Positions 1 through 27,696 of a DNA stretch of 32,000 bases are shown here, in pieces. The translations under genes and the position numbers were made by a program. The notes under the pieces were generated by a model, which was given only the letters and a program-made list of their open reading frames with translations, had not been told where the DNA came from and ran no database searches. Position 1 is the first letter of the stretch. Every line of letters starts with the position of its first letter. The stretch spans positions 1,650,001 to 1,682,000 of the forward strand of contig NC_022093.1 in assembly GCF_000446015.1 (NCBI RefSeq), read 5' to 3'. The stretch comes from Thermofilum adornatum (GTDB lineage: Archaea; Thermoproteota; Thermoprotei; Thermofilales; Thermofilaceae).

Positions 1-111
1 AATACGAGCTGCATTTTTGGTTCGCGAAGTTTATTGCTGCAACTGAGAGGGGCAGGCAGGCTCTCAATAGGCCTGCTAGGGCGTTTAGGGTTTTGTACGG
101 GCTTGATTAGT

Positions 112-6022: not shown

Positions 6023-6298
6023 ATGATAAGGGCTAATATAAGTAAGGATCTTGAGAGAAGGTTTAGGGAACTTGCGATGAGGAGGTTTGGATACGGAAAG
6101 GGCTCTCTGCAAAAAGCAGTCGAGGAAGCTATTGCGCGGTGGGTTTCATGGGTGGAGGAAGAGAGCTTAAAGTTTGAAGGGGACCCCGTGGAGGCTATTG
6201 ACGGGATCCTTGCGGACCTTGATGTTGATTCGGTGGAGCTTCAGCATAGGCTTAAGGAGTTCTGGGCCTCAAAGGTGCTCAAGGATGTACCTGGTTGA
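6023..6298 (+). CDS. vapB: Ribbon-helix-helix (CopG/VapB-type) antitoxin
   Basis: The start MIRANISKDLERRFRELAMRRFGYGKGSLQKAVEEAIARWV fits an RHH pattern. It overlaps the downstream PIN gene by 14 nt. A TATA-like cttttatgtc lies at 5989-5998. Confidence 0.7.
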   Translation: MIRANISKDLERRFRELAMRRFGYGKGSLQKAVEEAIARWVSWVEEESLKFEGDPVEAIDGILADLDVDSVELQHRLKEFWASKVLKDVPG

Positions 6299-6707
6299 TA
6301 CGAACATCTTTCTCGAGGTCATGCTTTCCCGTAGGAGGAAGGACGAGTGCAAACTCTTTTTGAAGATGCTGAGGGACGGCGAAATATTGGGAACCGTGAC
6401 CGATTTCTCGGTTCACTCAATAATGGTGCTCTTGGACAGACTTAACAGGCCCGAGAAGCTGAAGACTTTTCTCCTGAGCTTGACCGGGTACAGGGGTCTA
6501 GCTGTGCACTATACGTCTATTGCGGAGGAGGTTAGAGCGGTGGAATTGGCGCGGGAGAAGAAACTGGACATAGATGATGCACTGCAGTACGCTGTTGCTC
6601 TCTCTATTGGTGCAGATGCCATAGTTTCATTCGACGAGGACTTCAGTAACTTGGAGATACCGAGGCTGGAGCCGGTCGAAATCATTGATAAAAGGAAGAG
6701 CCATTAG
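6285..6707 (+). CDS. vapC: PIN-domain toxin VapC
   Basis: MYLVDTNIFLEV..., DIDDALQY and SFDEDF supply the acidic PIN residues in the expected order. The ORF-track N-terminal extension (6174-6284) overlaps the antitoxin and shows no homology. Confidence 0.85.
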   Translation: MYLVDTNIFLEVMLSRRRKDECKLFLKMLRDGEILGTVTDFSVHSIMVLLDRLNRPEKLKTFLLSLTGYRGLAVHYTSIAEEVRAVELAREKKLDIDDALQYAVALSIGADAIVSFDEDFSNLEIPRLEPVEIIDKRKSH

Positions 6708-14900: not shown

Positions 14901-14928
14901 TCTCCTCTCCGTAGCTTTTTTGGCACTT

Positions 14929-15741
14929 ATGAGTCAAGAAAAAGTCGTTCACATTGTTACCGTGGGGACGAGCATTGTTAGGAATATAGCGCAAAATGTT
15001 TCTGGACAAAGCGTCTCTAGCGAGGTTTTAGAGAAATTCAAGAGGTGGGCTCAGGCTTCTCCCAGGAGCAGAGAGGACGCTGAAGCTGGTGAGAGGGCTT
15101 GTAGCGGCTGCGAGGAGTTCGAGGCTGGGCTGAGGATTCTTGCCAGCAAGCCGTATGAGGTGAGCGCTGAGCTTAACGCTATGAGGTCTTACCTGGAGGA
15201 GGGAATGGTCGACGCCGTTGTGCTTCTTTCGTCTGATACTGGTGTGTCTGAGTTCTCTGCGAAGATTCTTGAGGCTTATCTCTCCTCGGAGGGGAAACTT
15301 GTAGAAACAATTAGGGTGCCGGGCCTCGGCCTGGACTTTCAGGAGGGTCTGATTAACCTGGTGGACACAGTTGCAAGCGTTGTGGCAAGGTATAGAGGTC
15401 TGGGTTATAGGGCATGGATAAACCTTACGGGGGGCTTCAAGCTGGAGGCGGCTGTCCTGTATCTCGTCTCCTGTCTGTCTAGGCTGGGCGTCGAGAAGGC
15501 CTACTATATACATGAGGCCATGAGGAGCACTGTGGAGGTCCCAGCTATACCTGTAAAGCTTGAGGACTCCCTGCTGAGAACTGTCGAGCGGCTAGGCGAT
15601 CAAGAGGTCGAACTAGAGGAGGCACGTAAAAGGATAGGCGAAGAGATGCTAGATGTCCTCCTTAGGAGTGGGCTTGTCGAAAGGAGTGGCACAACTGTGA
15701 GGATAAGGAAGTGGGTATTGCACTTGGTGAGAGGCTTCTAG
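14929..15741 (+). CDS. CARF-domain protein (Cas_APE2256-like) with C-terminal winged-helix domain
   Basis: N-terminal HIVTVGTSIVRN, SAELN and NLTGGFK (15421-15441) are CARF/APE2256-family hallmarks. The C-terminal ~60 aa (MLDVLLRSGLVERSGTTVRIRKW) look like a wHTH. An in-frame TTG lies at 14920. Confidence 0.75.
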   Translation: MSQEKVVHIVTVGTSIVRNIAQNVSGQSVSSEVLEKFKRWAQASPRSREDAEAGERACSGCEEFEAGLRILASKPYEVSAELNAMRSYLEEGMVDAVVLLSSDTGVSEFSAKILEAYLSSEGKLVETIRVPGLGLDFQEGLINLVDTVASVVARYRGLGYRAWINLTGGFKLEAAVLYLVSCLSRLGVEKAYYIHEAMRSTVEVPAIPVKLEDSLLRTVERLGDQEVELEEARKRIGEEMLDVLLRSGLVERSGTTVRIRKWVLHLVRGF

Positions 15742-16381: not shown

Positions 16382-17353
16382 TTAGGCTTTTTCATGTAGC
16401 CAGCATGCGACATAGTGGCCGGGCTCAACTTCTATTAGTGGCGGCTCGGCTGTCCTGCATTTTTCTGTGGCGAATGGGCACCTGGGGTGGAACCTGCATC
16501 CCTTCGGTATGTCTATTGGCGATGGGGGCTCGCCCTGGATTGCTAGTCTCTGCCTGGTTCTCGCATATTTGGGGTCGGGTATAGGTATTGAGCTTAGTAG
16601 GAACTTTGTGTATGGGTGCAGGGGGTTCTCGAATATTCTATCCGATGGCCCTAGCTCGACGATTTTTCCTAGATACATTACTCCTATCCTGTGGCTCATG
16701 TATTTGACTACTCCTATGTCGTGGGATATGAAGAGGTAGGATATCTTCCTTTCTCTCTGTATGTCTTTAAGCATGTTTAGTATAGATGCCTGCACAGAGA
16801 CATCTAGGGAAGATGTTGGCTCGTCTAGGACTATGAAGCTTGGGTTCAGGGTGAGCGCCCTGAGGATAGCTATTCTCTGTTTTTGTCCACCGCTGAGCTC
16901 GTGGGGGTATCTGTATAGGTGCTCCCTTCCCAGGCCAACGCTTTCTAGTTGCTTTACAATGTATTCTTCGGGGTCTCCGACCGGGATATTGTGCTCGAAG
17001 AGTGGCTCAGAGAGTATCTCGAAAATGGTCATCCTGGGGTTTAGAGATGTGTTTGGGTCTTGGAAGACTATCTGGGCATTTCTCCTGAACTGTTTTAACT
17101 CTTCACCCCTAAGGGACATGACGTCTTTTCCATTGAAGAATATTTTTCCAGACGTTGGCTCTAGGAGGCGTATAACGGTTCTGCCTAGTGTCGACTTTCC
17201 GCACCCACTTTCACCCACGAGTCCAAGGGTTTCGCCCTGGCTTATAGTGAAGTCGACGCCGTCGACGGCTTTGACAGTCTTAAATAGGGAGCCTCTTACC
17301 TTGAAGTATTTCTTCAGGTTTTCAACCCGTATAAGTTCCGCCATTTTTCTCAC
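16382..17353 (-). CDS. Opp/Dpp-type ABC transporter ATP-binding protein (F-type)
   Basis: Walker A GESGCGKS, signature LSGGQKQR and Walker B FIVLDEPTS are present, plus a C-terminal Cys-rich Opp/Dpp extension (CRFHPRCPFATEKC...CW). Confidence 0.9.
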   Translation of the reverse strand: MRKMAELIRVENLKKYFKVRGSLFKTVKAVDGVDFTISQGETLGLVGESGCGKSTLGRTVIRLLEPTSGKIFFNGKDVMSLRGEELKQFRRNAQIVFQDPNTSLNPRMTIFEILSEPLFEHNIPVGDPEEYIVKQLESVGLGREHLYRYPHELSGGQKQRIAILRALTLNPSFIVLDEPTSSLDVSVQASILNMLKDIQRERKISYLFISHDIGVVKYMSHRIGVMYLGKIVELGPSDRIFENPLHPYTKFLLSSIPIPDPKYARTRQRLAIQGEPPSPIDIPKGCRFHPRCPFATEKCRTAEPPLIEVEPGHYVACWLHEKA

Positions 17354-18351
17354 CTCTTTGCATGTAGCCAGCAGTGAACAACGTGACCGTTACCTAGATC
17401 TATTCTGGGAGGGTCTTCCTTTCTGCAGATCTCCATAGCGAATGGGCATCGGGGGGCGAAGGGGCAACCAGGCTTCATGTCTATCAAGTTGGGAACGGTG
17501 CCCGGTATTGATTCTAGCCGCTCGATTCGTTTCAATGGGTTTGGGACGGCCCTTAATAGGAGTTGGGTGTAGGGGTGCATTGGTGCCTCGAATATAGTGT
17601 TTACGTCTGCTGTTTCGGCTATTCTGCCTCCATACATGACATAAACCCTGTCAGCTGTCTCTGCTACTACTCCTAGATTGTGTGTGATTAAGAGGAGGCT
17701 CATCTTGTATTTTTCTTTCAGCCCCCTCAACAGGTCTAGGATCTGTGCCTGGACTGTTACGTCTAGGTTGGTTGTCGGCTCGTCTGCAATTAGGAGCCTC
17801 GGCTTGTTTGCTATAGCTGTGGCAATCACAACTCTCTGCCTCATCCCCCCGCTAAGCTCATGTGGGTAGTTCTTGACCCTGACCTCGGGGTTCGGAATCA
17901 ATACGTCTCGGAGCAGTTGGACAGCCTCTTGATAAGCCTCGTCCTTAGTTATTGGTCTATGCTCAAGAATGGTTTCAGCTATGTGGTCTCCTGCAGTGTA
18001 TAGTGGGTCTAGTGAGCTTGAGGGGTCCTGGAATATGTAGGCAATCTCGTTTCCCCTTATTTCCCTGATCTCTTCTGGCGACAGCTTTAGCAGGTCAACA
18101 ATTGTCCCGTCTCTCTTCCTGAACAATGCTTGTCCAGTCTCAATGCGCCCAGGCGGATCTATCAAGCCTGTAATCGCCTTTGTGAAAACAGACTTCCCAC
18201 AGCCCGTCTCTCCAACCAGGGCGACTGTTTCCCTTTCGAACACGTCTAGGTAGGCCTGCGAGACAGCGTGTACAACGCCGGCATACGTGTAGAACCTCAC
18301 CGAGAGGTCTCTTACCGCTAATACCTGGTTTTCGGGCAAAGTGCTACTCAT
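17350..18351 (-). CDS. Opp/Dpp-type ABC transporter ATP-binding protein (D-type)
   Basis: GETGCGKS, LSGGMRQR and LLIADEPTT are present, plus the C-terminal CPFAPRCPFAMEIC...CW. Start and stop overlap the neighbouring genes by 4 nt. Confidence 0.9.
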   Translation of the reverse strand: MSSTLPENQVLAVRDLSVRFYTYAGVVHAVSQAYLDVFERETVALVGETGCGKSVFTKAITGLIDPPGRIETGQALFRKRDGTIVDLLKLSPEEIREIRGNEIAYIFQDPSSSLDPLYTAGDHIAETILEHRPITKDEAYQEAVQLLRDVLIPNPEVRVKNYPHELSGGMRQRVVIATAIANKPRLLIADEPTTNLDVTVQAQILDLLRGLKEKYKMSLLLITHNLGVVAETADRVYVMYGGRIAETADVNTIFEAPMHPYTQLLLRAVPNPLKRIERLESIPGTVPNLIDMKPGCPFAPRCPFAMEICRKEDPPRIDLGNGHVVHCWLHAKR

Positions 18352-19454
18352 TTTCTCACCTCTATCTTGGCTTTTAACTCTATTGAGCGCCTAGTCTTCG
18401 GGTCGAAGACGTCCCTCAGGGCGTCTCCCACTAGGTTCCATCCAAGAGATATTAGTAGCAATGCTGTCCCGGCCTCTATTACTATCCACCAGCTTTTCTC
18501 CGGGAAGTACTGCCCCGCCTGTGAAATAATGAGGCCCAGATCGGGGACAGGTGGCTGGGGGCCCAAACCCAGGAACGATAGGGCCGCAGAGCTAAGTGTC
18601 GCGGTCGCAAAATCGAATGTAACCATGACTAGGAGTGGAGACATGATGTTGGGGAAAATGTGCCTGGTAAGTATCTTCCACGTTGAAAGCCCCAGAGCCT
18701 TTGCGGCCTCTATGAAGCCCTGCTCCTTTACTGATAGGACGGAGCCTCTCACAACCCTTGCGTATGGGGGCCACCAAACGAGTATAAGTGCGAGGAAGAC
18801 AGAGAGCAGGTTTGCGAGGTTAGGAGCGTCCTTGGGGTTAAGGGCAAATAGGGAGGCAACTATGCTTGTTGCCGTTGGGTTTGCCATCAGGAAGTCTCTA
18901 AGAGAGAGCCGGAGCGTTAAGCTGAATGCTATAGCTAGGATTAGCCCTGGGAAAGCGAGCATCATGTCGGTAAACCTCATTAGGATTTCGTCTACTAGTC
19001 CTCCGAAATAGCCCGAGACTAGGCCTATCAGAATGCCTATAAGAGAGCTAGTTACAACAATTATTATGCTCATAACAAGGGCTATCCTGAAACCCCTTAC
19101 CACTAGGCTTAAAACGTCTCTTCCATACTGGTCTGTACCAAACATTGGCAGACCTTCACAGTTCCCAAAACACGGTGGATGAGGCAACTTTCCAGCTAGC
19201 TCGGGCTTGTTGAGTATCGGGTATACGTCGTACGGTTCCCATGCAATAAAGGGGCCAAATATCGCTAGAAAAAGTGTAATGACAACAAGGGCTAGACCGG
19301 TGAGCCCTATCCTGGAAGAAGTGAAGACATAGACGGAGAGCTTTGTCTCAACGAGTTTGGACCTGTTCTTTTCGAGCCATCCCGGGCTTATCTTTTCCCT
19401 TAGACCTGCATATTTGTCTATAAGCCAGCTTCCAAAACGGTAAACAGGGTTCAT
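18348..19454 (-). CDS. Opp/Dpp-type ABC transporter permease (C-type)
   Basis: Multi-TM protein with the EAA-type loop (IEAAKALGLSTWKILTRHIFPN). Confidence 0.9.
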   Translation of the reverse strand: MNPVYRFGSWLIDKYAGLREKISPGWLEKNRSKLVETKLSVYVFTSSRIGLTGLALVVITLFLAIFGPFIAWEPYDVYPILNKPELAGKLPHPPCFGNCEGLPMFGTDQYGRDVLSLVVRGFRIALVMSIIIVVTSSLIGILIGLVSGYFGGLVDEILMRFTDMMLAFPGLILAIAFSLTLRLSLRDFLMANPTATSIVASLFALNPKDAPNLANLLSVFLALILVWWPPYARVVRGSVLSVKEQGFIEAAKALGLSTWKILTRHIFPNIMSPLLVMVTFDFATATLSSAALSFLGLGPQPPVPDLGLIISQAGQYFPEKSWWIVIEAGTALLLISLGWNLVGDALRDVFDPKTRRSIELKAKIEVRK

Positions 19455-19466
19455 GCTTCTCGACCT

Positions 19467-20525
19467 CTAGTATCTCACCCGGGGATCAATCAAGGCGTAA
19501 ATGAGGTCTACTATGAGATTCATGACTATGTATATTATCGAGAACAGGAATGTTCCAGCAATGATTATAGGGAAGTTAAGCCTAGTTATCCCCTGATACA
19601 TGTAGAGCCCCATTCCAGGAATATTGAAGACAGTCTCAGCTATTATTGCCCCGGTAAGTAGCCCGGCAAAATCAAGTCCAAGAATGGTCACTATTGGTGC
19701 AAAGGCGTTCTTCAAAGCGTGGCGCCATATCCGCTGGTTTGTCAGCCCTCTAGCCTTTGCAAAAAGGATTGACTCTGATGTGAAGGCGTCGAGAAGACTG
19801 TTCCTCACTATTCTGGCAATGAATCCCCCTGATAGCAGGCCAAGAGCCAGTCCTGGAAGCCACATTCTTACCACCGTATCGGAAACAACACTAAATTCTC
19901 CACACATTGGGGCGCCAAAGATTGGGACTTGCCCAACTGCCCATACCAAGTAGCCCAGCACTGGCACAGCGTCCCTTATAGAGTCTAGGCGGGCGGCACA
20001 GGAAAGGGAATAGAACGGTACTCCAGCGAGCAAAGAGGCTCTGGCATATACGTAGAAGGCGAGTATCAAAAAGTAGTATAGCACGAAGGCTGGAATAGAG
20101 CTACCGAACAATGCAAATATCCTTACAAAAAAGTCGATGACACTGTCCTTCTTTGCGGCGGCAACTATGCCTAGAGGTATCCCTATAGCCACCGTAAACA
20201 GCATCCCAAAAATCGCCAGCTCGACTGTTATGGGGAATCTCTGTGCCACTTGCTGGACAACTGGGGTTCCACGCACCGGGTCAATAAGTGTACCGCTCAG
20301 CAACTTTTCAACCAGGAAGACGAATTGCTCGTACCAGGGCGCGTCGAACTTGTATTCCTTTTTTAGCTTGTCGAGGGTTGATGGATCCATGAGTTTCTCT
20401 CCTACCCATGCCCTGACGGGGTCAGTAGGTATAACGTATGCAATTAGGTAAGTTATCAGCAACGCCCCTATCACGCTGGGCAGAAAGGTCAGCAACCTCC
20501 TTAAAAGATAACTTCCAAGTCCCAT
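19467..20525 (-). CDS. Opp/Dpp-type ABC transporter permease (B-type)
   Basis: MGLGSYLLRRLLTFLPSV is a typical OppB/DppB N-terminus, and the EAA-like loop FAKARGLTNQRIWRHALKNAFAP is present. The ORF extends to an upstream TTG at 20540. Confidence 0.9.
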   Translation of the reverse strand: MGLGSYLLRRLLTFLPSVIGALLITYLIAYVIPTDPVRAWVGEKLMDPSTLDKLKKEYKFDAPWYEQFVFLVEKLLSGTLIDPVRGTPVVQQVAQRFPITVELAIFGMLFTVAIGIPLGIVAAAKKDSVIDFFVRIFALFGSSIPAFVLYYFLILAFYVYARASLLAGVPFYSLSCAARLDSIRDAVPVLGYLVWAVGQVPIFGAPMCGEFSVVSDTVVRMWLPGLALGLLSGGFIARIVRNSLLDAFTSESILFAKARGLTNQRIWRHALKNAFAPIVTILGLDFAGLLTGAIIAETVFNIPGMGLYMYQGITRLNFPIIIAGTFLFSIIYIVMNLIVDLIYALIDPRVRY

Positions 20526-20564
20526 TTTCCAACTCACCAAAAAAGAAAAAAAGGTTTTAAGTTT

Positions 20565-22712
20565 TTAGGGCTTGAATCCATATAGTTGTTGCCATAATGT
20601 CGCGTTCCAGTAGTATGGGTTGTATTTGAGCAGGATGTAGCTATCTTCCTTGTAGTCTGCAACATAGTATGGACCAGTTGATACAGGCTTTGTTGAAAGT
20701 AGCTTGAATGTCGGGTCATCTTCGCCTACACCCACATATTTAGCCCACGCCGCGGGGTTTCTACCATTGTTTGAGTCGGCTAGAGCCGCCTGGTAGTTAT
20801 TTCCAAGGGCGTACTGCATCGGTATAATTGAGCCGACGCCCGTGACGAATATCTGGAGTATTGGGACGTAGGGGAAGCGTAGCTTGAACTTTACTACGCC
20901 CGCTGTCGGCCCGCTGTACTTGAAGAAGCTTAGTAGCTCGTTTAGGCTGTGGACTTCTGCAGACTTGCCCATGTAGAATGTTACTAGCCCGTTTGTCTTT
21001 GCTAGGTTGTCTAGCTCGCTCTCTGTCATAACGCTTGAAGCGTTAACATCTATGTAGCTGTCGATCATCCATTGGGGCCCACCTGGTAGGTTTAGTCTAA
21101 CTGCGCGCCACACGCTGAAGAGCGCGTCTACAGCTGTAATGGGGTAGGTCTTGTTGTTCCACGGGTCGTATGCCTTGACGTTGCCCCTCATTACGAAGTA
21201 GAGCTCTGTCAGATCCTTGCTGAAGGCCCACGCGACAGAGAGCTCTGGGATAGGCTCGGTATCTTCTTTCCACATTGTGACTAGCTTTCCATAGGTTTGC
21301 CAGAATATTTCCCAGCCGAAGCTCTCGTAGGACTTTGCTGGGTCAAATGTGTCTGGCCAGCCGATGTCTCCTATAACCATTGTTTCTGGGCTGTTCTTGA
21401 CGCCCGCTACACCGGTGTCAGCGACTGGAGCGTTGGGATCCTCCCATACCAGGTCGTATCTAGCAAAGGTGGCAACGGGGTAGTACATGTCGTGTACCCA
21501 TGATCCGTAGTTTTCGCCCGTGATTTGTTGCCCTAAGATGAGTAACGTTGCCTGCTTATTGAAATAAATCGTTGCCGCCTGGAGCACTGCTTCCCTGATC
21601 GTTGGGTCTACTATTCTCTGGGCAGCCTTGCATAGGGCGCTTAGTGCAACATCTTTGAGTCCTCCTGTTCCAAGAGTGACCATGTTTACTGGGTTTGCCC
21701 AGTTGCTGTTTGTTGTGTCCCAGTCAACCACGTAGCCAATAGTGATTATCGGCTTGTTTGTCGGACCCGTATATTTCGCGCCGGTACCCTTCTCGCCGGC
21801 GACAACTATGAACTTCTCGGTCTCTACAGTCATGTTTACGTTTGCGAGATATTTTCCAACGTCTCCTGGAGCGACGTTGCTATTGATCTCTAGATTCTTG
21901 AACTCTGCGCCTCCCCAGACAAATGGCATCAAGTAGTCGTCTGGGTCGAAATAGTCGGGGATCCATCCTAGAAGCATGACTTGGAACTGGAAGTGGTCTG
22001 TCAAGTCAAGGTACTTTGGCCACGAGTAAGACTCTACTGTCACCTTGAATCCTAGCTGGCTCCATGACTGCTGGAGCAGTGTCGCTATTTGCTGGCGCGC
22101 AGTGTTGCCCTCGTTATAGATAATGGTTATAACGTACTTGCTTGGGTCGAAGCCTTTAGCCTTAAGCTGGGACATTATCTGTTGTGCCTTATTCATGTCG
22201 TACTCATACTTGTTTATGCCGAACTCTGTATAGCCAGGCATCCCCTTGGGTATTATAGTGTAGAGCCTCGTGTATAGGCCTCCAAACACCTGTTTCAGTA
22301 TGACGTCATAGGGCACAGCATATGCCAGTGCCTGTCTAACCTCCGGAATATTGAAGGGTTCCTTCATGGGGTTAAGTCCTACATACTGAATTGTAAGTTG
22401 TGGCTTGTCTGGTCTCCTCACCAGGTGGAGGGTAAAGTTACCTACCTTTGTATTGTTTACATCAGGCCATCTCGCCGGGGTTACAGCAGCTATATCGAAT
22501 ACCCCGGTTTTATACATGTTAATTCTTGTTCCCTCATCGTTGACAATTACGTAGAGTATTTGCTTGTGGAATGGTCTAGCCTGTGCAACTGGTCCCGTGG
22601 GTGTGGGACCCTTTGGAAGCAAAACTATTACCGCAACAATTAGAAGTATTACAGCAATAATTACGGCGTATAAGGTATTTTTATTTAAGCCTTTGGATTT
22701 TGTTGTTTGCAC
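20565..22712 (-). CDS. ABC transporter substrate-binding protein, family 5 (Opp/Dpp type), N-terminally anchored, motif order circularly permuted
   Basis: GTG start, TM anchor and PTPTGP linker. Family-5 motifs are present but in the order [YVGLNP..EVRQALAYAV][NKAQQIM][LLGWIPDYFDPDDY][canonical C-end] followed by [DTFDPAKSY][PELSVAWAFSKD..YFVMRGNVKAYD][STGPYYVADYKEDSYILLKYNPYYW]. Confidence 0.85.
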   Translation of the reverse strand: MQTTKSKGLNKNTLYAVIIAVILLIVAVIVLLPKGPTPTGPVAQARPFHKQILYVIVNDEGTRINMYKTGVFDIAAVTPARWPDVNNTKVGNFTLHLVRRPDKPQLTIQYVGLNPMKEPFNIPEVRQALAYAVPYDVILKQVFGGLYTRLYTIIPKGMPGYTEFGINKYEYDMNKAQQIMSQLKAKGFDPSKYVITIIYNEGNTARQQIATLLQQSWSQLGFKVTVESYSWPKYLDLTDHFQFQVMLLGWIPDYFDPDDYLMPFVWGGAEFKNLEINSNVAPGDVGKYLANVNMTVETEKFIVVAGEKGTGAKYTGPTNKPIITIGYVVDWDTTNSNWANPVNMVTLGTGGLKDVALSALCKAAQRIVDPTIREAVLQAATIYFNKQATLLILGQQITGENYGSWVHDMYYPVATFARYDLVWEDPNAPVADTGVAGVKNSPETMVIGDIGWPDTFDPAKSYESFGWEIFWQTYGKLVTMWKEDTEPIPELSVAWAFSKDLTELYFVMRGNVKAYDPWNNKTYPITAVDALFSVWRAVRLNLPGGPQWMIDSYIDVNASSVMTESELDNLAKTNGLVTFYMGKSAEVHSLNELLSFFKYSGPTAGVVKFKLRFPYVPILQIFVTGVGSIIPMQYALGNNYQAALADSNNGRNPAAWAKYVGVGEDDPTFKLLSTKPVSTGPYYVADYKEDSYILLKYNPYYWNATLWQQLYGFKP

Positions 22713-22733: not shown

Positions 22734-22741
22734 TATTTAAA
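22734..22741 (-). promoter_or_regulatory. TATA box for the ABC operon
   Basis: The minus-strand tttaaata is centred about 25 nt upstream of the GTG at 22712. Confidence 0.4.
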
Positions 22742-22950: not shown

Positions 22951-24108
22951 ATGAATTATAAACGTTCAAAAGTTAGGGCAAGCCTAAAACAGCTAGTTGC
23001 AAGTACCTCGTTGCATTTTGAACCTTGCAGTTTAAAGGGGAAAATGCAAAAACCACGGGTAGCAGATGGTGAGTATGCTCAAATTTTTGTAAAGCAAGAT
23101 TATCATGTAGTATTTACTCATGACTGGTTCAATAGGTCGACAGGCAACTATGGATGCGCCTATCTTGTAAGATTCGAGGAGCCAAGAGAGGTTGAGGGTT
23201 CTTTCTGGGATTTTCTGCACAACCGGAGTTACAAGGCAAGAGTTTGGACGAGTAGCCTGCACGTATTTTACGACGCTAAAAAGGAGAGAATTGTCCTAGT
23301 GGATCCCATCGTTTCTGGTTCCCTAAAGAGTGAGGGACTAGCGGATCATGAGGGAGCTCCTATAGACCTATATGGGAAAGAGCATTTCCTTTTAGGTGAA
23401 TTCTGGCTTGCTGGACTTGGAGGGAAGCTAAAGATATATGAGACTTGGGAAGGAAACCAAGCCACAATTGTTGGCTATTTGGGTTCAAATGTTGAGCCAA
23501 GGTTCTCGGGAAAAGCCTTCACTGCCAGCGCTTTCAATCTCAGGTCTCTTTGGGCTGAGTACTATTTCTCGCGCCTAGTTCACCCTCTTAGTGGCCTAGC
23601 CGAAGTCTCCATAGATTCCTCGATAACCTACAATTACGACTTCCAGTCCGAATATGTCTCCGCGAGAAACATTGACTGGCCCGTGTCATTTATATTCAAG
23701 GGATTCCACATGGCAGGAGAAGTTAAAAGCTACTTTTTTGGCGAGACACCTTTCGGGAACGAGATGAAGATGCTTGTGAAGACAAGCGCTTCCTGGACGG
23801 GAGACAGGGGAACAAAGGGACTCATCTATCTCCCTCTGATTAATGGGTATCTCTACGGACATATGCGTCTCTATAGAATAGGCGAAGACCTTGTAGCAGG
23901 TACCTCTCATCTTGACCAATTTCCCGTAGAGTCTTGGAGCGGATACTCTATACTTGCGAGGAAAATTTTTGTAGAAATGGCCTCGATTCGAGGGTTAAAC
24001 GTAAAGGAAAGATTTTCCTATCTATATAACAGGGAGGGCCCAATATTTGAAGATAATCATCCAAGGTTGCATTCAGGCTATGTCAGCCTCATAAGAAAAC
24101 ACAGCTAG
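22951..24108 (+). CDS. hypothetical protein (ORFan, soluble)
   Basis: 385-aa ATG ORF with no TM segment, no signal peptide and no motif I recognise. Its composition is AT-rich. Confidence 0.6.
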   Translation: MNYKRSKVRASLKQLVASTSLHFEPCSLKGKMQKPRVADGEYAQIFVKQDYHVVFTHDWFNRSTGNYGCAYLVRFEEPREVEGSFWDFLHNRSYKARVWTSSLHVFYDAKKERIVLVDPIVSGSLKSEGLADHEGAPIDLYGKEHFLLGEFWLAGLGGKLKIYETWEGNQATIVGYLGSNVEPRFSGKAFTASAFNLRSLWAEYYFSRLVHPLSGLAEVSIDSSITYNYDFQSEYVSARNIDWPVSFIFKGFHMAGEVKSYFFGETPFGNEMKMLVKTSASWTGDRGTKGLIYLPLINGYLYGHMRLYRIGEDLVAGTSHLDQFPVESWSGYSILARKIFVEMASIRGLNVKERFSYLYNREGPIFEDNHPRLHSGYVSLIRKHS

Positions 24109-24136: not shown

Positions 24137-24754
24137 ATGCTTGGCTTTATCCATATGCTGTATATAAATGTCTCGGAGAGAGTGCTACAAAAGATTAGCA
24201 CGTGGAAGAAAGTCTGGCTCCCCTACGTCCTTTATACAAGCCTCCACAACCCAAAATATGTTTACCTCTTTGACTGCGTATTTTCAAGTAAACTAAGGAA
24301 CGACTCATTGAGCCTCTTATTGTCTAGACGGATCGAGAAAGAGTACCTGGCAAGCTCTGAAAATATTCCCTTTAAGTTTCCCCTCTACCCTGACAAGGAT
24401 TGCCAAAGAGATGTTCTAGAATATCTTACAAATATGTATAGAGAACAGTCGCTCCAAATGCATCAAAATGTTTCTTTTGAACAAACTGACTACTTGGCCG
24501 TAAGAATGCTAGGCGTACCTAGCGCTATGAGAAAATTAGAGGAGTATTTCAGGCAATTCTCAAAGAGAAGTCCTTTGCAAGGAATCTTGAACGATATCCA
24601 GAATATGGAGCTCGAGCATAAAGGAATCGCATACTCTTTGTTTGTTTTTGATGGAAAAATGACATATAATGTCATTGGTGAAAAATTGATACAGATGAAG
24701 ATTCTAGAAAAATATTTGACAGGGGGACAGGTTTTGGAGCAACTTTTCCCTTAA
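24137..24754 (+). CDS. hypothetical protein (ORFan)
   Basis: 205-aa ORF starting 28 nt after the previous gene on the same strand, with no recognisable motif. An alternative ATG lies at 24155. Confidence 0.5.
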   Translation: MLGFIHMLYINVSERVLQKISTWKKVWLPYVLYTSLHNPKYVYLFDCVFSSKLRNDSLSLLLSRRIEKEYLASSENIPFKFPLYPDKDCQRDVLEYLTNMYREQSLQMHQNVSFEQTDYLAVRMLGVPSAMRKLEEYFRQFSKRSPLQGILNDIQNMELEHKGIAYSLFVFDGKMTYNVIGEKLIQMKILEKYLTGGQVLEQLFP

Positions 24755-24824: not shown

Positions 24825-26186
24825 ATGCGTAGATATGTTTTCCTAAAGGTTAAAGGTGGTGTTGGCGGCTCATCACTAGCACTCTCGCTTGGCAAGTTTC
24901 TAGCGCTAAGAGGTTCAAAAGTCTTAATTGTAGACGCGGATCCAGTAAGCACAATATCTGAGCTTGTTGGACACAAGGCTAAGGGCATTATCCAGGCTGT
25001 AAAAGAAAATCTTGACTATAGGACATCACTAAAAACAATTGAGACTGGAAAGGGGACTCTAACAGTTTTGAGGATATATAGTGAAAGGATTCCCCTAGAA
25101 GTAGAGAAGCGAGACTTATTGTCTTTTAAAGACAAGTTCTCTGAGACATATACGAGAGCGCTTAATAGCGAAAATGTTGACTATGTTATTGTTGACCATG
25201 AGGCGGCCCTGTCTTATGAAGATCCACTATTCTCTATTGAAAGAAAAAATTTCCACGAGACATACAAGGGGATCCAAGAAGGGATAATAATGGTTCTCGA
25301 GCCGACCCCAGTGTCTCTCAGCTCTACAAAGAGGTATATTGATGCACTACAGGCTAAAGAACAGCTACCGTTTTCGGCCATCATAGTTAACAAAGTTCCC
25401 ACAGACGAAGAAACTATGACAAGGGCTAGAGAGATACTGGAGGAAGCCATGGAATATAGTGGCGCCAAGGTTGGCGCGCTTATCCCTATTATTAATGACT
25501 ATGTTCTCTATAGACCCGGGGCTTTCACGCTTTACCCGATTCCCGTAGGCGTCATGGAAATAGCGCTAGCCTTAGAAAGAAACAAAAAGATAATGTATAC
25601 CCCTTCACATCTAGACGCCTTAAAGAAAGCAGTTTATATAAGGTCCACTATGCTTATTGAGACAGACTCTTCCAATATTCTCAAATGCATACAGGAGATA
25701 CTAGAGGTTCCAAAGAAAATATACTCTGAGGAATTCAAGGCCTTAATTTTCTCAACACAGAGATTCTCGACCCTAATAGCAGAATCAAGCTATGTTGACT
25801 ACTATGGAACAACATATTCCTATGAAGCAACCAAGCTAAAAACAGGGAGCGTAGAAGAAGTTATAAGACTAGCCAAAAAGCTGGCACAGGACTTCATTAG
25901 AGAGATTGAGGCAGACGATACAGAAAAAATTATAGTAATAGCAAGTACAAATGACCTCGAACCCATATACCCCTCACAAGAGGCGCCCCAGCTCTCTAGG
26001 GCATTTTGGAAGGAGTTCCTAGAAAGCCTTAAGCATGGAACAAAAAATGCTTCTATAATCCTCCTATGTGAGCCTATTGGAGCACAGTGCCAAGCATTGA
26101 GGGGACTGGTAGATATAGCTATACGTTCAGACTACAAAGAGGGGGTTCCAAAATGCACAGTTCTCCAATCAAAGATCCCTGGCTAG
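24825..26186 (+). CDS. ParA/MinD-superfamily protein with lysine-less P-loop (BcsQ-like) and ~220-aa C-terminal extension
   Basis: The N-terminus is VFLKVKGGVGGSSLALSLGKFLALRGSKVLIVDADP (KGGVGGSS at 24852-24875). A Walker B-like YVIVDHE and IIVNKV follow. The C-terminal half is unassigned. Confidence 0.7.
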   Translation: MRRYVFLKVKGGVGGSSLALSLGKFLALRGSKVLIVDADPVSTISELVGHKAKGIIQAVKENLDYRTSLKTIETGKGTLTVLRIYSERIPLEVEKRDLLSFKDKFSETYTRALNSENVDYVIVDHEAALSYEDPLFSIERKNFHETYKGIQEGIIMVLEPTPVSLSSTKRYIDALQAKEQLPFSAIIVNKVPTDEETMTRAREILEEAMEYSGAKVGALIPIINDYVLYRPGAFTLYPIPVGVMEIALALERNKKIMYTPSHLDALKKAVYIRSTMLIETDSSNILKCIQEILEVPKKIYSEEFKALIFSTQRFSTLIAESSYVDYYGTTYSYEATKLKTGSVEEVIRLAKKLAQDFIREIEADDTEKIIVIASTNDLEPIYPSQEAPQLSRAFWKEFLESLKHGTKNASIILLCEPIGAQCQALRGLVDIAIRSDYKEGVPKCTVLQSKIPG

Positions 26187-26190
26187 AAAC

Positions 26191-27696
26191 ATGAAGAGAA
26201 TAATAAATTACCTCGTCTTTTTTTCGCCTTTCCTCGCGGCACTAATTGCAACTTATCTTACCTTCAGCGACGTTTGGCTGGTGTGGCTTGCATATGGCGT
26301 TTGGCTAGCAATGTTTACGGGTTTCTTCGTATTTCTAAACTACACACTTGTGACACTTCGATACAGAAAGTATGATGCAAGGTACGTAGGGAAACCCCTA
26401 AACCTTAGGATTGCGGCCTTTGTCACGTCATTTAATGAGGATCCAGGTATTATTAAGGACACGCTTCTCTCAGTTAAGGCCGCACTTAAGGGTAGAGGCG
26501 ACGTGTATCTTTTGGACGACTCGACCAGGCCCGAGATAGTCAAAGAAATGGAGGAATTTTGTAAAGTTAATGGTATATATTATATCCATAGGACTGACCG
26601 CAGAGGCTTCAAGGCTGGAGCCATAAACAATGCCCTAAGGCTTGTTGGAGACAAGTATGACCTCATAGCTATATTCGACGCTGACCAGCGTCCAACCTCA
26701 GGCTTCTTTGATGCGGTAATTCCATTCTTTAGAGACGAGAATGTCGCATTTGTCCAGGTTCCTCAAAAATACACCGAGATAGACTCCTATGTCTCTCAGG
26801 GCGCAAAGTACCAACAGGAGCCCTTCCTAAGGATAATAATGCGTGGGAGAAGCGAGTCGTCGGCTTTTTCCCTGGGTTCTGGCACGGTTTTCCGGGCAAG
26901 CGTCCTTAAGGAAGTCGGGGGCATGGACGAGTCGAGCATAACTGAGGACGCGGCAACCTCTGTAAAGATTCACTCCATGAAATATCTCTCCCCCTACCTG
27001 GACGAGGAGCTTATCTGGTATGGAGAGCCGCCTCCAGACGCTTCTGCATATGTACAGCAGCAGAGCAGATGGTCTTTTGGCTATTTCCAGCTTACACCTA
27101 ATCTTTTAAAGATGAGCCTCGACATTCAGGTCTTCTTTGACTATGCTGCTGGCTTTTATTATTGGCTGAAAGAGGGTATCCTTACATTGTTCGAAATAAT
27201 TGCGCCAATAGTCTTCCTATTGTTAAGGAGACCCTACATCAAGCTTGACCCGTTCCTTTATGCCATTGTCTACTTTCCCTATTTGTTCTTCTCGACGGCC
27301 ATATTCACCTATAGCATACGGAGAAAAACCTATGGTCTTAGGGGCTTCCTTCTCCACCAGTTCGTAGAATACATAGCCTTCTTCGGGTTAACGGTCTCAT
27401 TTTTCTCCTGGCTTGCTAGGCGTAAACGTCCATTCAAGGTGACCCCGAAAGGCAGGGGGAGAAGAGCGTTCGGCGTTGTTGTACCCCACGTTTTCTTTGA
27501 CATTCTCTTGCTTTTATCAATATTTGCTGGTGTCGCGTGGTACCCATCTGCACCAATGATTCTGCAAGCCGCGATACTGGTAAACCTCTTCTGGGCTGTT
27601 TGGCACTACTTCTTCTTGACGGGCTCGATAATAGTTGCACTGTCGGTTCCAAGAGAAAGAGAAGAAGCAAGATACGTTGAGAAAATAAAGAAATAA
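26191..27696 (+). CDS. Processive family-2 glycosyltransferase, cellulose-synthase-like (BcsA/CesA type), no PilZ domain
   Basis: Two N-terminal TM helices, then LLDDS, FDADQ (DAD at 26677-26685), VQVPQKY, TED (26941-26949), QQQSRW (27055-27072) and the FxVTxK motif FKVTPK (27433-27450) within the C-terminal TM bundle. It starts 4 nt after the ParA-like stop. Confidence 0.85.
   Translation: MKRIINYLVFFSPFLAALIATYLTFSDVWLVWLAYGVWLAMFTGFFVFLNYTLVTLRYRKYDARYVGKPLNLRIAAFVTSFNEDPGIIKDTLLSVKAALKGRGDVYLLDDSTRPEIVKEMEEFCKVNGIYYIHRTDRRGFKAGAINNALRLVGDKYDLIAIFDADQRPTSGFFDAVIPFFRDENVAFVQVPQKYTEIDSYVSQGAKYQQEPFLRIIMRGRSESSAFSLGSGTVFRASVLKEVGGMDESSITEDAATSVKIHSMKYLSPYLDEELIWYGEPPPDASAYVQQQSRWSFGYFQLTPNLLKMSLDIQVFFDYAAGFYYWLKEGILTLFEIIAPIVFLLLRRPYIKLDPFLYAIVYFPYLFFSTAIFTYSIRRKTYGLRGFLLHQFVEYIAFFGLTVSFFSWLARRKRPFKVTPKGRGRRAFGVVVPHVFFDILLLLSIFAGVAWYPSAPMILQAAILVNLFWAVWHYFFLTGSIIVALSVPREREEARYVEKIKK

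What the first reader, a model, noticed from the sequence alone, without database searches (positions are those of the whole stretch)
20565..22712. Family-5 (Opp/Dpp) substrate-binding protein with circularly permuted motif order
In canonical family-5 SBPs such as DppA, the motif order is: N-terminal xDPA; P.LA..W..s.Dg.tytF.LR.gvkfhD; GTGPY...nP.YW; i.f..i.d...r...l..G..D; Y.gfN....vRqAl..A; AK.LL; GW..dy.DP; and a C-terminal R..ly...q.il.e..p.i.l. In this protein the mature part, after the TM anchor and PTPTGP linker, begins with ILYVIVNDEGTRINMYKTGVFDIAAV. It continues through YVGLNP..EVRQALAYAV, NKAQQIM, LLGWIPDYFDPDDY and the canonical C-terminal block REAVLQAATIYFNKQATLLILGQ...YDLVW. A short linker follows at about aa 424-442 (nt ~21384-21446). 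Only then do the canonical N-terminal blocks appear: DTFDPAKSY, PELSVAWAFSKDLTELYFVMRGNVKAYD, ITAVDALFSVWR and STGPYYVADYKEDSYILLKYNPYYW, which lies near the C-terminus. The new N-terminus picks up exactly where the new C-terminus stops, which is the signature of a circular permutation (duplication followed by trimming) rather than domain shuffling. This would relocate the membrane tether to the middle of the canonical fold.
Basis: seen in the sequence. Interest (0 to 1): 0.65.

Follow-up and report, generated by a model that had tools for sequence, protein, structure and literature searches.

The report
Circularly permuted archaeal Opp/Dpp binding protein
The nutrient-capturing subunit of an archaeal ABC importer has the standard family-5 binding-protein fold, but its chain starts in the middle of that fold and the usual ends are joined; related archaea carry the same protein cut at several other places, which makes the family an unusually rich natural case of circular permutation.

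Summary
The observation and the interpretation both hold. ORF 20565-22712 (-) encodes a 715-aa protein with an N-terminal membrane anchor. It heads a complete OppB-OppC-OppD-OppF operon in a Thermofilaceae (Infirmifilum-like) archaeon.

In profile-profile alignment, residues 50-423 match E. coli DppA 240-533 and residues 442-704 match DppA 28-235. After rotating the sequence in silico, a single collinear alignment covers DppA 28-533 (E 1e-87). AlphaFold2 gives one compact body (pLDDT 93, pTM 0.87). Sequential Foldseek aligns only part of it to canonical family-5 binding proteins, and no PDB chain shares its topology.

It is not an assembly chimera. The identical protein occurs in three independent assemblies, and 137 species-level genomes encode relatives.

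The family is monophyletic against canonical proteins (100/100 NJ bootstrap). All members share the fused canonical C-to-N junction, yet their termini sit at four or more positions (forms A, B/B', C, D). Pairs 63-69% identical over the main block differ only by which segment sits at which end. Sister archaeal groups show further break points, and fused tandem binding-protein modules exist.

The open literature I could search reports natural permutation only for cluster B (T. pallidum MglB-2). Substrate and selective reason remain unknown.

The parts
20565..22712 (-). Complete CDS of the circularly permuted family-5 substrate-binding protein (715 aa plus stop).
   Evidence: ORF list. The identical 715-aa product is called in three NCBI assemblies. 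Pfam PF00496 scores 189.9 bits against a cutoff of 32.4.
22734..22741 (-). Candidate archaeal TATA-like box (TTTAAATA), about 25 nt upstream of the GTG start; this would imply a leaderless or near-leaderless transcript. Inferred only.
   Evidence: Read directly from the sequence. No functional test was done.
22617..22682 (-). N-terminal hydrophobic signal-anchor helix, aa 11-32.
   Evidence: Hydropathy scan places a TM segment at residue 11. AF2 models a helix at 11-31. The 22-residue h-region and the absence of a lipobox Cys are read from the sequence.
22578..22616 (-). Pro/Thr-rich flexible tether, aa 33-45 (PKGPTPTGPVAQA).
   Evidence: AF2 pLDDT is below 50 for residues 32-41. The length varies and the segment is Thr-rich in homologues.
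21444..22577 (-). Block 1, aa 46-423. It equals the canonical C-terminal 300 residues (DppA 236-533): the second half of domain I, domain III and the C-terminal strand/helix.
   Evidence: hhalign hit q50-423 = DppA 240-533 at E 3.9e-56; residue map.
21954..21956 (-). Asp253, aligned with DppA Asp436 (Asp408 in the mature protein), the residue that binds the peptide alpha-amino group in DppA. It is invariant in 66 family members.
   Evidence: Residue map and invariant-column list. The role of Asp408 in DppA is recalled from established knowledge, not tested here.
21681..21920 (-). Family-specific insertion of about 80 aa (aa 265-344) relative to DppA 447-454. The form B and B' break points lie within it.
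   Evidence: Gap map of the rotated hhalign alignment. Form B and B' termini are at q278/294 and HMM 297-354.
21390..21443 (-). Linker of 18 aa (aa 424-441, EDPNAPVADTGVAGVKNS) joining what are the C- and N-termini of canonical proteins.
   Evidence: It lies between the two hhalign blocks. AF2 models strands 431-435 and 438-441 with high confidence. It is conserved across forms A, B and D.
20601..21389 (-). Block 2, aa 442-704. It equals the canonical N-terminal 208 residues (DppA 28-235): the first strand of domain I, domain II, and the GTGPY...NPYYW segment.
   Evidence: hhalign hit q442-704 = DppA 28-235 at E 1.7e-31; residue map.
20568..20600 (-). C-terminal 11-residue tail (aa 705-715), a short helix after the NPYYW motif.
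   Evidence: AF2 helix 704-711. In forms B, C and D this tail runs directly into the segment that starts form A.
19467..20540 (-). OppB/DppB-type permease, 357 aa.
   Evidence: Pfam BPD_transp_1 at E 1e-36 plus BPD_transp_1_N.
18348..19454 (-). OppC/DppC-type permease, 368 aa.
   Evidence: Pfam BPD_transp_1 at E 1e-30 plus OppC_N.
17350..18351 (-). OppD-type ATPase, 333 aa.
   Evidence: Pfam ABC_tran plus oligo_HPY.
16382..17353 (-). OppF-type ATPase, 323 aa.
   Evidence: Pfam ABC_tran plus oligo_HPY.

Best explanation
The gene encodes the membrane-anchored substrate-binding subunit of an Opp/Dpp-type ABC importer of a Thermofilaceae archaeon.

Anatomy. The ~670-residue ectodomain has the three-domain family-5 (cluster C) fold, written in circularly permuted order. 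The chain runs: N-terminal signal-anchor helix and Pro/Thr tether; then the canonical C-terminal 300 residues (aa 46-423 = DppA 236-533); then an 18-residue hairpin linker closing the canonical C- and N-termini (aa 424-441); then the canonical N-terminal 208 residues (aa 442-704 = DppA 28-235).

Function (inferred). It most likely works as an ordinary Venus-flytrap receptor. It captures a ligand between the two lobes and delivers it to the OppBC permease powered by OppDF. The ligand is probably an oligopeptide, because the alpha-amino-binding Asp of DppA is invariant in the family. The permutation changes chain connectivity and the point where the membrane tether leaves the fold, not the fold itself.

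Origin (inferred). In-frame duplication or fusion of the binding module was followed by trimming. This happened more than once in this lineage. The family is monophyletic and shares one fused C-to-N junction, but its members have termini at four or more different positions.

Status of each step. The permuted order, its conservation, the operon and the predicted intact fold are shown. Function as a receptor, substrate class, origin by duplication and trimming, and any advantage of moving the tether are inferred.
For: Permutation:
- Two complementary profile hits before rotation versus one full-length collinear hit after rotation, with DppA 28-533 covered at E 9.8e-88.
- Cyclic order against DppA, and collinearity across the junction of tandem OppA-OppA.
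- Independent PDB phmmer and NCBIfam coordinates agree.

Fold:
- AF2 pLDDT 93.2 and pTM 0.87 for one body.
- Foldseek top hits are all family-5 SBPs, with only 355-395 aligned columns and TMt 0.40-0.53.
- The form B relative P0105 has a longer canonical-collinear block. As predicted from the maps, it gives 500-560 columns and TMt 0.55-0.69.

Real gene under selection:
- The identical protein is in 3 assemblies.
- 171 hits at 90% clustering include isolates with complete genomes, and 137 species genomes encode a relative.
- More than 60 columns are invariant across 66 sequences, including Asp253.
- The SBP-OppBCDF operon is conserved in the window and in Desulfurococcus.

Repeated permutation:
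- blastp block orders define forms A, B, C and D.
- The forms follow taxonomy in genomes.
- Family monophyly scores 100/100 while form A monophyly scores 0/100. The clade of form D plus A-type P0104/P0113/P0115 scores 100/100.
- P0116 (D) and P0104 (A) are 69% identical, with a 46-aa segment at opposite ends. P0077 (A) and P0105 (B) are 63%/51% identical with the blocks swapped.

Plausible intermediates:
- Fused tandem SBP_5 modules with short junctions exist, namely P0231 and P0140.
Against: - There is no experimental structure or binding data.
- I could not obtain model coordinates, so no permutation-aware superposition (CE-CP or TM-align -cp) was run. Adjacency of the termini is argued from sequence continuity in other forms, not measured.
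- The substrate is unknown. DppA Arg383 has no aligned counterpart, NCBIfam DppA/OppA equivalog cutoffs are missed by an order of magnitude, and neighbouring genes give no clue.
- The break points of the different forms fall in different lobes, so no single preferred tether site emerges. This argues against a simple adaptive 'tether relocation' story.
- The trees are NJ only, and deep branching, including which form is ancestral, is unresolved. Midpoint rooting suggested A; outgroup rooting puts B' basal.
- No tandem-duplicate intermediate was found inside this family itself.
Confidence: 0.9

Rival explanations
1. Assembly chimera or gene-calling artefact: two partial SBP genes were joined by misassembly.
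For: The window is metagenome-like sequence, and in one related MAG the neighbouring OppB gene is split into two ORFs (L087). Local errors therefore do occur in these assemblies.
Against: - The identical 715-aa protein sits with the same neighbours in three independent assemblies.
- The same order is seen at 43-98% identity in more than 90 clusters, including complete isolate genomes: Desulfurococcus amylolyticus 1.38 Mb, Pyrobaculum ferrireducens 2.47 Mb and Infirmifilum 1.88 Mb.
- 137 species genomes encode a relative.
Confidence: 0.01
2. Domain shuffling: the C-terminal part of one SBP paralogue fused to the N-terminal part of a different paralogue, giving a mosaic rather than a permutation of a single ancestor.
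For: The canonical proteins scoring highest for block 1 and for block 2 overlap little (1 of the top 12).
Against: - The blocks are exactly complementary on DppA (28-235 and 236-533), with no overlap or gap.
- Scores of the two blocks against 181 canonical proteins are correlated (Spearman 0.65, p 6e-23).
- The rotated alignment score (676) is about equal to the sum of the two separate scores (436 + 249).
- Relatives with other break points keep the A-form termini contiguous. This is expected for permutation of one module and not for a mosaic.
Confidence: 0.04
3. Spurious apparent permutation: the two alpha/beta lobes of binding proteins resemble each other, so alignments slip by one lobe.
For: SBP lobes are structurally similar (general knowledge).
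Against: - The matches are to lobe-specific signature motifs, at E 1e-31 to 1e-56.
- The alternative hhalign alignments have probabilities of 0.4% or less.
- Rotation yields one continuous alignment.
Confidence: 0.01
4. On why it exists, adaptive version: permutation was selected because it moves the membrane tether (or both N- and C-terminal anchors) to a position better suited to a cell with no periplasm. This was suggested for T. pallidum MglB-2.
For: - All forms are membrane-anchored: A and B by an N-terminal TM plus a Thr/Pro linker, C, D and some A by an additional C-terminal TM.
- Brautigam et al. raise the same idea for tethered cluster-B proteins (PMC4990184).
- The permuted order has been kept across a large, old clade.
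Against: - Break points lie in different lobes: DppA ~236 and ~281 in domain I, and ~367 and ~450 in domain III. The domain limits are recalled from DppA structures. There is therefore no common tether site.
- Many canonical archaeal SBP_5 proteins are also TM- or lipid-anchored.
Confidence: 0.3
5. On why it exists, neutral version: the fold tolerates new termini at many surface loops and its natural ends are adjacent. Occasional tandem duplication or fusion of SBP modules, followed by trimming, then fixes permutants by drift.
For: - There are many different break points: A, B, B', C and D in this family, and E, F, C-like and A-like in sister groups.
- Fused tandem modules exist.
- A singleton permutant, P0134, is 84-87% identical to canonical orthologues.
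- Engineered binding proteins tolerate permutation (titles and abstracts returned by the literature search).
Against: The canonical order is overwhelmingly dominant elsewhere: 113 of the 148 listed representatives start with the canonical N-terminal block. Something therefore makes this lineage special. The recurrent 'DP-x-A-P' linker motif is also unexplained.
Confidence: 0.5

Closest known systems
E. coli DppA / OppA and other cluster C (family 5, PF00496) substrate-binding proteins
   Same: - Same fold and signature motifs; full-length profile alignment after rotation (DppA 28-533, E 1e-87).
- Same operon partners: OppB/C-type permeases and OppD/F ATPases with the oligo_HPY domain.
- The Asp that binds the peptide amino group is conserved.
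   Different: - The chain starts at the equivalent of DppA 236 and ends at 235, and the canonical ends are joined by an 18-aa hairpin.
- It has an N-terminal TM anchor instead of a cleaved signal peptide.
- Four insertions total about 140 aa.
- It scores far below the NCBIfam DppA/OppA equivalog cutoffs.
Treponema pallidum Tp0684 (TpMglB-2), proposed 'cluster Bc / type Ic' circularly permuted glucose-binding protein (PMC4990184)
   Same: - A natural circular permutation of an ABC-transporter binding protein.
- The permutant is tethered to the membrane, encoded next to its transporter, and conserved in a clade.
- The authors also speculate on a link to tethering.
   Different: - It belongs to a different structural cluster (B, type I sugar binders) with no sequence relationship to this family.
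- The paper as I read it describes a single divergent topology, whereas this family shows four or more termini positions.
Archaeal Opp-class binding proteins of Sulfolobus and Aeropyrum pernix OppA (Elferink 2001; Balestrieri 2011, as summarised in PMC3387779)
   Same: Crenarchaeal family-5 proteins anchored to the membrane through hydrophobic segments and Ser/Thr-rich linkers.
   Different: They are described with an N-terminal signal peptide and a C-terminal TM anchor. Their segment order was not tested here, because the primary paper was not held. The Aeropyrum relative found here (P0105) is form B, with an N-terminal anchor and Thr-rich linker, so it is a different protein.
DNA methyltransferase classes (alpha, beta, gamma, zeta) as a family with several natural circular permutations
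   Same: One catalytic or binding fold exists in several cyclic orders, attributed to duplication and trimming. This is recalled from established literature and was not tested here.
   Different: It is an unrelated fold and function. In the present family the differently permuted members are still 63-69% identical over the main block.

Membership tests
Family-5 / cluster C substrate-binding proteins (Pfam PF00496 SBP_bac_5) | Significant match to the family profile above the curated threshold. | tested here: met
   189.9 bits against a cutoff of 32.4, E 9.4e-56.
Family-5 / cluster C substrate-binding proteins (Pfam PF00496 SBP_bac_5) | All segments of the three-domain fold are present (domain I, extra domain II, domain III). 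| tested here: met
   The rotated profile aligns to DppA 28-533 of 535. AF2 gives a single body with pTM 0.87. The top Foldseek hits are all family-5 SBPs.
Family-5 / cluster C substrate-binding proteins (Pfam PF00496 SBP_bac_5) | Canonical N-to-C order of the segments. | tested here: not met
   The unrotated profile gives two hits in swapped order, q50-423 = DppA 240-533 and q442-704 = DppA 28-235.
Family-5 / cluster C substrate-binding proteins (Pfam PF00496 SBP_bac_5) | Encoded with Opp/Dpp-type permeases and ATPases. | tested here: met
   Two BPD_transp_1 permeases (with BPD_transp_1_N and OppC_N) and two ABC_tran plus oligo_HPY ATPases lie directly downstream. The same operon is found in L088, L089 and L090.
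Family-5 / cluster C substrate-binding proteins (Pfam PF00496 SBP_bac_5) | Export signal or membrane or lipid anchor. | tested here: met
   Hydrophobic helix at aa 11-32 followed by a Pro/Thr linker. Cleavage versus anchoring was not tested.
Circular permutant (formal definition) | Two blocks in swapped order that together cover the parent once, with no loss or duplication. | tested here: met
   DppA 236-533 followed by DppA 28-235.
Circular permutant (formal definition) | Collinear with a tandem duplicate of the parent, or a single alignment after rotation. | tested here: met
   In OppA-OppA, HMM stretch 358-549 spans the junction. The rotated hhalign hit has E 9.8e-88.
Circular permutant (formal definition) | Same three-dimensional fold, shown by permutation-aware superposition. 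| not testable with these tools
Indirect support: aligned lengths for form A (355-395 columns) and form B (500-560 columns) scale with their collinear blocks.
DppA / OppA orthologue (peptide-binding equivalogs NF043070, NF011684) | Score above the NCBIfam equivalog cutoff. | tested here: not met
   94 bits against a cutoff of 1005 for DppA, and 41 against 947 for OppA.
DppA / OppA orthologue (peptide-binding equivalogs NF043070, NF011684) | Ligand-contact residues conserved (DppA Asp436 and Arg383, precursor numbering). | tested here: inconclusive
   Asp436 aligns with the invariant Asp253. Arg383 falls in an alignment gap.
TpMglB-2-like 'cluster Bc' permuted binding proteins | Cluster B (type I) sugar-binding fold homologous to MglB. 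| tested here: not met
   All sequence and structure matches are to cluster C family-5 proteins. The relation is one of analogy only.

The most novel reading that the evidence does not exclude
This archaeal clade of family-5 binding proteins is a hot spot of serial circular permutation. One ancestral fusion of the canonical ends was followed by repeated relocation of the chain termini. There are four or more positions within one monophyletic family, and further positions in sister archaeal groups. Members still 63-69% identical over the main block differ only in cyclic order, a singleton is 84-87% identical to canonical orthologues, and fused tandem modules survive as candidate intermediates.

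If this is real, it is possibly the most densely sampled natural system for watching permutation by duplication and trimming. It would also be a natural map of where the cluster C fold tolerates new termini and tether points.
Probability: 0.6. Interest if true: 0.8.

Novelty: new variant of a known kind. Interest (0 to 1): 0.68.

Why it matters
Binding proteins of ABC importers are textbook models for fold classification (clusters A-G), for protein-evolution studies and for biosensor engineering. In the open literature I could search, a natural circular permutation is reported only for cluster B (T. pallidum MglB-2).

This is a permuted cluster C family that is old, widespread in hyperthermophilic archaea and operon-linked. 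Its consequences are:

1. It adds a new topology class for cluster C, for which no PDB structure exists.
2. It explains why domain-order-sensitive annotation reports only partial matches for these proteins: the Pfam 'Middle' model hits in two stretches, and NCBIfam equivalog cutoffs are missed.
3. Through the several cyclic orders and the near-identical pairs, it offers a natural experiment on how permutations arise and on whether tether position matters for docking on the permease.
4. It shows nature-validated sites for new termini in thermostable scaffolds, which is useful for sensor design.

Tried and rejected
- **Foldseek against the PDB** is sequential, so it cannot show the permutation directly. 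I used it only for predicted partial coverage. Model coordinates are not exposed in the sandbox, so CE-CP and TM-align -cp were impossible.
- **The primary paper on A. pernix OppA** (Balestrieri 2011) was not held. Whether characterised archaeal OppA proteins are permuted stays untested.
- **Seven literature searches** (permutation combined with SBP, PBP, OppA or SBP_bac_5 terms, plus one on A. pernix OppA) found nothing on cluster C permutation. This covers open-access text only.
- **Neighbour genes** gave no substrate clue.
- **A strict regex for junction motifs** missed most sequences; a looser one worked only in part.
- **The midpoint-rooted NJ tree** suggested form A as ancestral. Outgroup rooting instead places B' basal. 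I therefore make no claim about which permuted form came first.
- **The near-identical pair P0134 (permuted) and P0269 (canonical)** was followed to DNA level in the hope of finding duplication scars. None are present. The permuted gene is a singleton in one MAG that has lost its downstream permease genes. I treat it as suggestive only.
- **The first NJ attempt** with Biopython's distance calculator timed out.
Full report
**1. What is there**

The region 20565-22712 holds one uninterrupted minus-strand ORF of 715 codons. It begins with a GTG start immediately after an in-frame TAA. About 25 nt upstream lies a TTTAAATA element, a plausible archaeal TATA box for a leaderless transcript; this is inference only.

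The product begins with a 22-residue hydrophobic helix (aa 11-32) and a Pro/Thr-rich stretch. Directly downstream on the same strand are two Opp/Dpp-type permeases (19467-20540 and 18348-19454) and two ATPases carrying the oligo_HPY C-terminal domain (17350-18351 and 16382-17353). The ORF is therefore the first gene of a complete SBP-OppB-OppC-OppD-OppF importer operon.

**2. Checking the observation**

- Pfam SBP_bac_5 matches at E 9.4e-56 but in two stretches. The N-terminal part of the protein (48-265) matches the rear part of the profile (147-361).
- Against solved DppA, the matches are q442-536 = DppA 28-124, q670-703 = DppA 201-234 and q101-262 = DppA 285-445.
- I fetched E. coli dppA and oppA and searched them, and their artificial tandem duplicates, with an HMM of the query's relatives. 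Along DppA the HMM coordinates run 458-554, 685-719, 97-284 and 373-428, which is a cyclic rotation. In OppA-OppA a single stretch (HMM 358-549) runs across the junction between the two copies.
- The decisive test was profile-profile alignment (hhalign) against a profile of 46 canonical sequences.
  - Unrotated, the family gives two hits: q50-423 = DppA 240-533 (E 3.9e-56, score 436) and q442-704 = DppA 28-235 (E 1.7e-31, score 249).
  - After cutting the alignment in the linker and swapping the halves, it gives one hit covering DppA 28-533, with 487 aligned columns, E 9.8e-88 and score 676.
- The residue map shows q704 = DppA 235 followed by q46 = DppA 236. The two blocks therefore tile the canonical protein exactly once.

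**3. Is the fold intact?**

AlphaFold2, using 66 family sequences, gives mean pLDDT 93.2 and pTM 0.87. Only the cytoplasmic tip and the tether fall below pLDDT 50.

Foldseek against the PDB returns only family-5 binding proteins (5f1q, 3m8u, 1dpp and others). It aligns just 355-395 columns, with TM-score 0.40-0.53 normalised to the target. That is what a sequential aligner should do with a permutant whose longest collinear block is DppA 236-533.

As a control with a predicted outcome, I modelled a relative in another cyclic order, form B (P0105), where DppA 28-448 is collinear (pLDDT 83.7, pTM 0.78). As expected, it aligned over 500-560 columns with TM 0.55-0.69.

No PDB chain aligns over the full length of either model, so the topology has no solved representative. 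A permutation-aware superposition could not be run, because model coordinates are not exposed.

**4. Not an artefact, and widely conserved**

- The identical protein, with the same neighbours, is found on contigs of three NCBI assemblies: GCA_038727395.1, GCA_038731815.1 and GCA_038734055.1.
- The homologue search found 171 clusters. These include complete genomes of Desulfurococcus amylolyticus, Pyrobaculum ferrireducens and an Infirmifilum species.
- A scan of one genome per GTDB species found relatives in 137 genomes. The closest is Infirmifilum sp. KC_020 at 84% identity, which places the window in the Thermofilaceae.
- More than 60 columns are invariant across 66 sequences.
- The operon is the same in Desulfurococcus.

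**5. More than one permutation**

Blastp block order and tblastn on genomes divide the family into four or more cyclic orders. All of them retain the fused canonical C-to-N junction.

| Form | Order (query numbering) | Seen in | Anchor |
|---|---|---|---|
| A (the query) | starts at q~45 | Thermofilaceae, Desulfurococcaceae, Pyrobaculum, a Bathyarchaeia MAG | N-terminal TM |
| B | [q294-712][q43-278] | Pyrodictiaceae, Acidilobaceae, Staphylothermus, Hyperthermus, Aeropyrum | N-terminal TM |
| C | [q190-710][q49-183] | MAGs labelled Asgard, Nitrososphaerota, Crenarchaeota | extra C-terminal TM |
| D | [q93-714][q48-91] | P0114, P0116 | extra C-terminal TM |

Among the 120 listed hits the counts are 93 A, 21 B, 4 C and 2 D.

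The exhaustive search of 1.84 billion representatives added a B' group (P0123-P0126). It also showed a sharp score gap between this family (at least 460 bits) and canonical proteins (at most 242 bits).

An outgroup-rooted NJ tree of rotated sequences gives the following bootstrap support out of 100:
- family: 100
- form C: 100
- form B without the long-branch Thermococcus sequence (P0082): 78
- form A as a clade: 0
- form D plus three A-type sequences (P0104, P0113, P0115): 100, with D itself not monophyletic

P0116 (D) and P0104 (A) are 69% identical over the main block. They are 76% identical over a 46-residue element that sits at the C-end in one and the N-end in the other. P0077 (A) and P0105 (B) are 63%/51% identical with the blocks swapped.

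The termini have therefore moved repeatedly. Which permuted form came first is unresolved, because midpoint and outgroup rooting disagree.

**6. Beyond the family**

- Of the 148 listed representatives, 113 start with the canonical N-terminal block; six of these carry two tandem modules.
- Ten proteins outside the family are permuted at yet other or similar points:
  - C-like: P0133, P0134, P0191.
  - 'E', just before the vRqAl.yA motif: P0139, P0182, P0185, P0195, P0233.
  - A-like: P0158.
  - 'F', within domain II: P0263.
- Some of these are supported by several members and contigs. P0133, a 'PGF-CTERM protein', has 7 members and P0158 has 10. Others are singletons at the 90% cluster level.
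- P0158 (A-like) and P0195 (E) are 73%/59% identical.
- P0134 is 84-87% identical to canonical Thermoplasmata orthologues and keeps their native TM helix. However, it is a singleton in one MAG whose locus has lost the downstream permease genes. I treat it as suggestive only.
- Proteins with two or more SBP_5 modules exist. In P0231 (1346 aa) and P0140 (4308 aa) the modules are fused through short junctions, which is the kind of intermediate the duplication-and-trimming model requires.
- The linkers of several permuted groups share a 'DP-x-A-P' motif that is absent from canonical termini. I cannot explain this.

**7. How it most likely works**

Shown: the permuted order, the intact predicted fold, the anchor, the operon and conservation.

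Inferred:
- The protein functions as a normal two-lobe receptor for the OppBCDF importer.
- The ligand is probably an oligopeptide. The Asp that binds the peptide amino group in DppA (Asp436 precursor, Asp408 mature; established knowledge) aligns with the invariant Asp253.
- This is weak evidence. Arg383 has no counterpart, the NCBIfam equivalog cutoffs are missed, and gene neighbours are uninformative.

The permutation moves the exit point of the tether. In form A it leaves from the loop after the NPYYW strand, equivalent to DppA 236. By my recollection of DppA domain limits this is still domain I.

Other forms place the termini at the equivalents of DppA ~281, ~367 and ~450. By those same recalled limits, these lie in both lobes. 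That argues against a single optimal tether site and favours a tolerant scaffold plus recurrent duplication and trimming. An adaptive role, as speculated for T. pallidum MglB-2, is not excluded.

**8. Comparison with what is known, and novelty**

The protein belongs to the family-5/cluster C superfamily by sequence, predicted fold and operon. It fails the family's canonical segment order.

The only natural permuted ABC binding protein I found in the searchable literature is TpMglB-2, a cluster B protein proposed as 'cluster Bc'. Searches combining permutation with OppA, oligopeptide-binding, periplasmic or solute-binding protein, or SBP_bac_5 found nothing for cluster C. The search covers open-access text only.

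I therefore rate this as a new variant of a known kind. The single permutation is solid (about 0.9). The broader reading, that this is a hot spot of serial permutation, is well supported by block orders and pair identities. It rests on NJ trees and partly on metagenomic singletons (about 0.6).

Noticed in passing
Related proteins P0082-P0126; loci L059, L062-L067, L069-L082: The same family exists in four or more cyclic orders (A, B/B', C, D) that follow taxonomy. Forms C, D and some A carry an extra C-terminal TM segment. A 46-aa element (FHKRVII..NEWATRK..TGTVDT.YVPAEN) sits at the N-end in P0104 and at the C-end in P0116, although the two are 69% identical.
   Followed up: yes
P0133, P0134, P0139, P0158, P0182, P0185, P0191, P0195, P0233, P0263 (representative search): Other archaeal SBP_5 groups outside the query's family are also circularly permuted, at further break points. 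One lies just before the vRqAl.yA motif, one inside domain II, and others are C-like or A-like. Some have PGF-CTERM tails.
   Followed up: partly
L083 8001-9749 (P0134), compared with L084 6998-8683 (P0269): A singleton permuted SBP in a Thermoplasmata MAG is 84-87% identical to canonical orthologues and keeps their TM helix. In its locus the cognate OppBCDF genes are replaced by a MatE gene. It could be a very recent permutation or a local rearrangement or assembly problem.
   Followed up: partly
Linker region: window 21390-21443, and the equivalent junctions in P0123, P0124, P0134, P0158, P0195: The junction joining the canonical C- and N-termini carries a similar K/E-DP-[NKSA]-A-[PT] motif in several permuted groups. 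The motif is absent from the termini of 76-113 canonical representatives. Whether this reflects shared ancestry, recombination or convergence is unexplained.
   Followed up: partly
P0231 (1346 aa), P0140 (4308 aa), P0143, P0145, P0163, P0175, P0245: Natural proteins carry two or more SBP_5 modules. In P0231 and P0140 the modules are fused head-to-tail through a short junction (…YFYHMWKEQ..IPP..NPQ.T…LDPH). These are candidate duplication intermediates for permutation.
   Followed up: partly
L087 12176-13473 (GCA_038727395.1), compared with window 19467-20540: In one MAG that carries the identical SBP, the OppB permease is called as two ORFs (161 + 236 aa). This is a frameshift or an assembly error. 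The gene is intact (357 aa) in the window and in two other assemblies.
   Followed up: no
window 22951-24108 (+) and 24137-24754 (+): Two ORFs (385 and 205 aa) divergent from the SBP gene have no Pfam match. They precede a ParA/ArsA-like ATPase (24825-26186) and a family-2 glycosyltransferase (26191-27696), and this arrangement is conserved in three assemblies.
   Followed up: no
window 34-3075 (+): A 1013-aa SNF2/DEAD-type helicase is fused to a NOV_C (NO VEIN C-terminal) domain, followed by a metallo-beta-lactamase/RMMBL protein (3020-4312). This may be a defence or repair module.
   Followed up: no
window 14920-15741 (+); 6174-6707 (+): A Cas_APE2256 (CARF-type) gene lies just beyond the transporter operon, and a PIN-domain gene is also present. 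Related assemblies show AbiEii, PIN and MazE genes nearby. I did not look for a CRISPR array.
   Followed up: no
P0075 (931 aa): A form-A family member carries an additional ~215-residue C-terminal domain of unknown nature after the NKYYWN motif.
   Followed up: no
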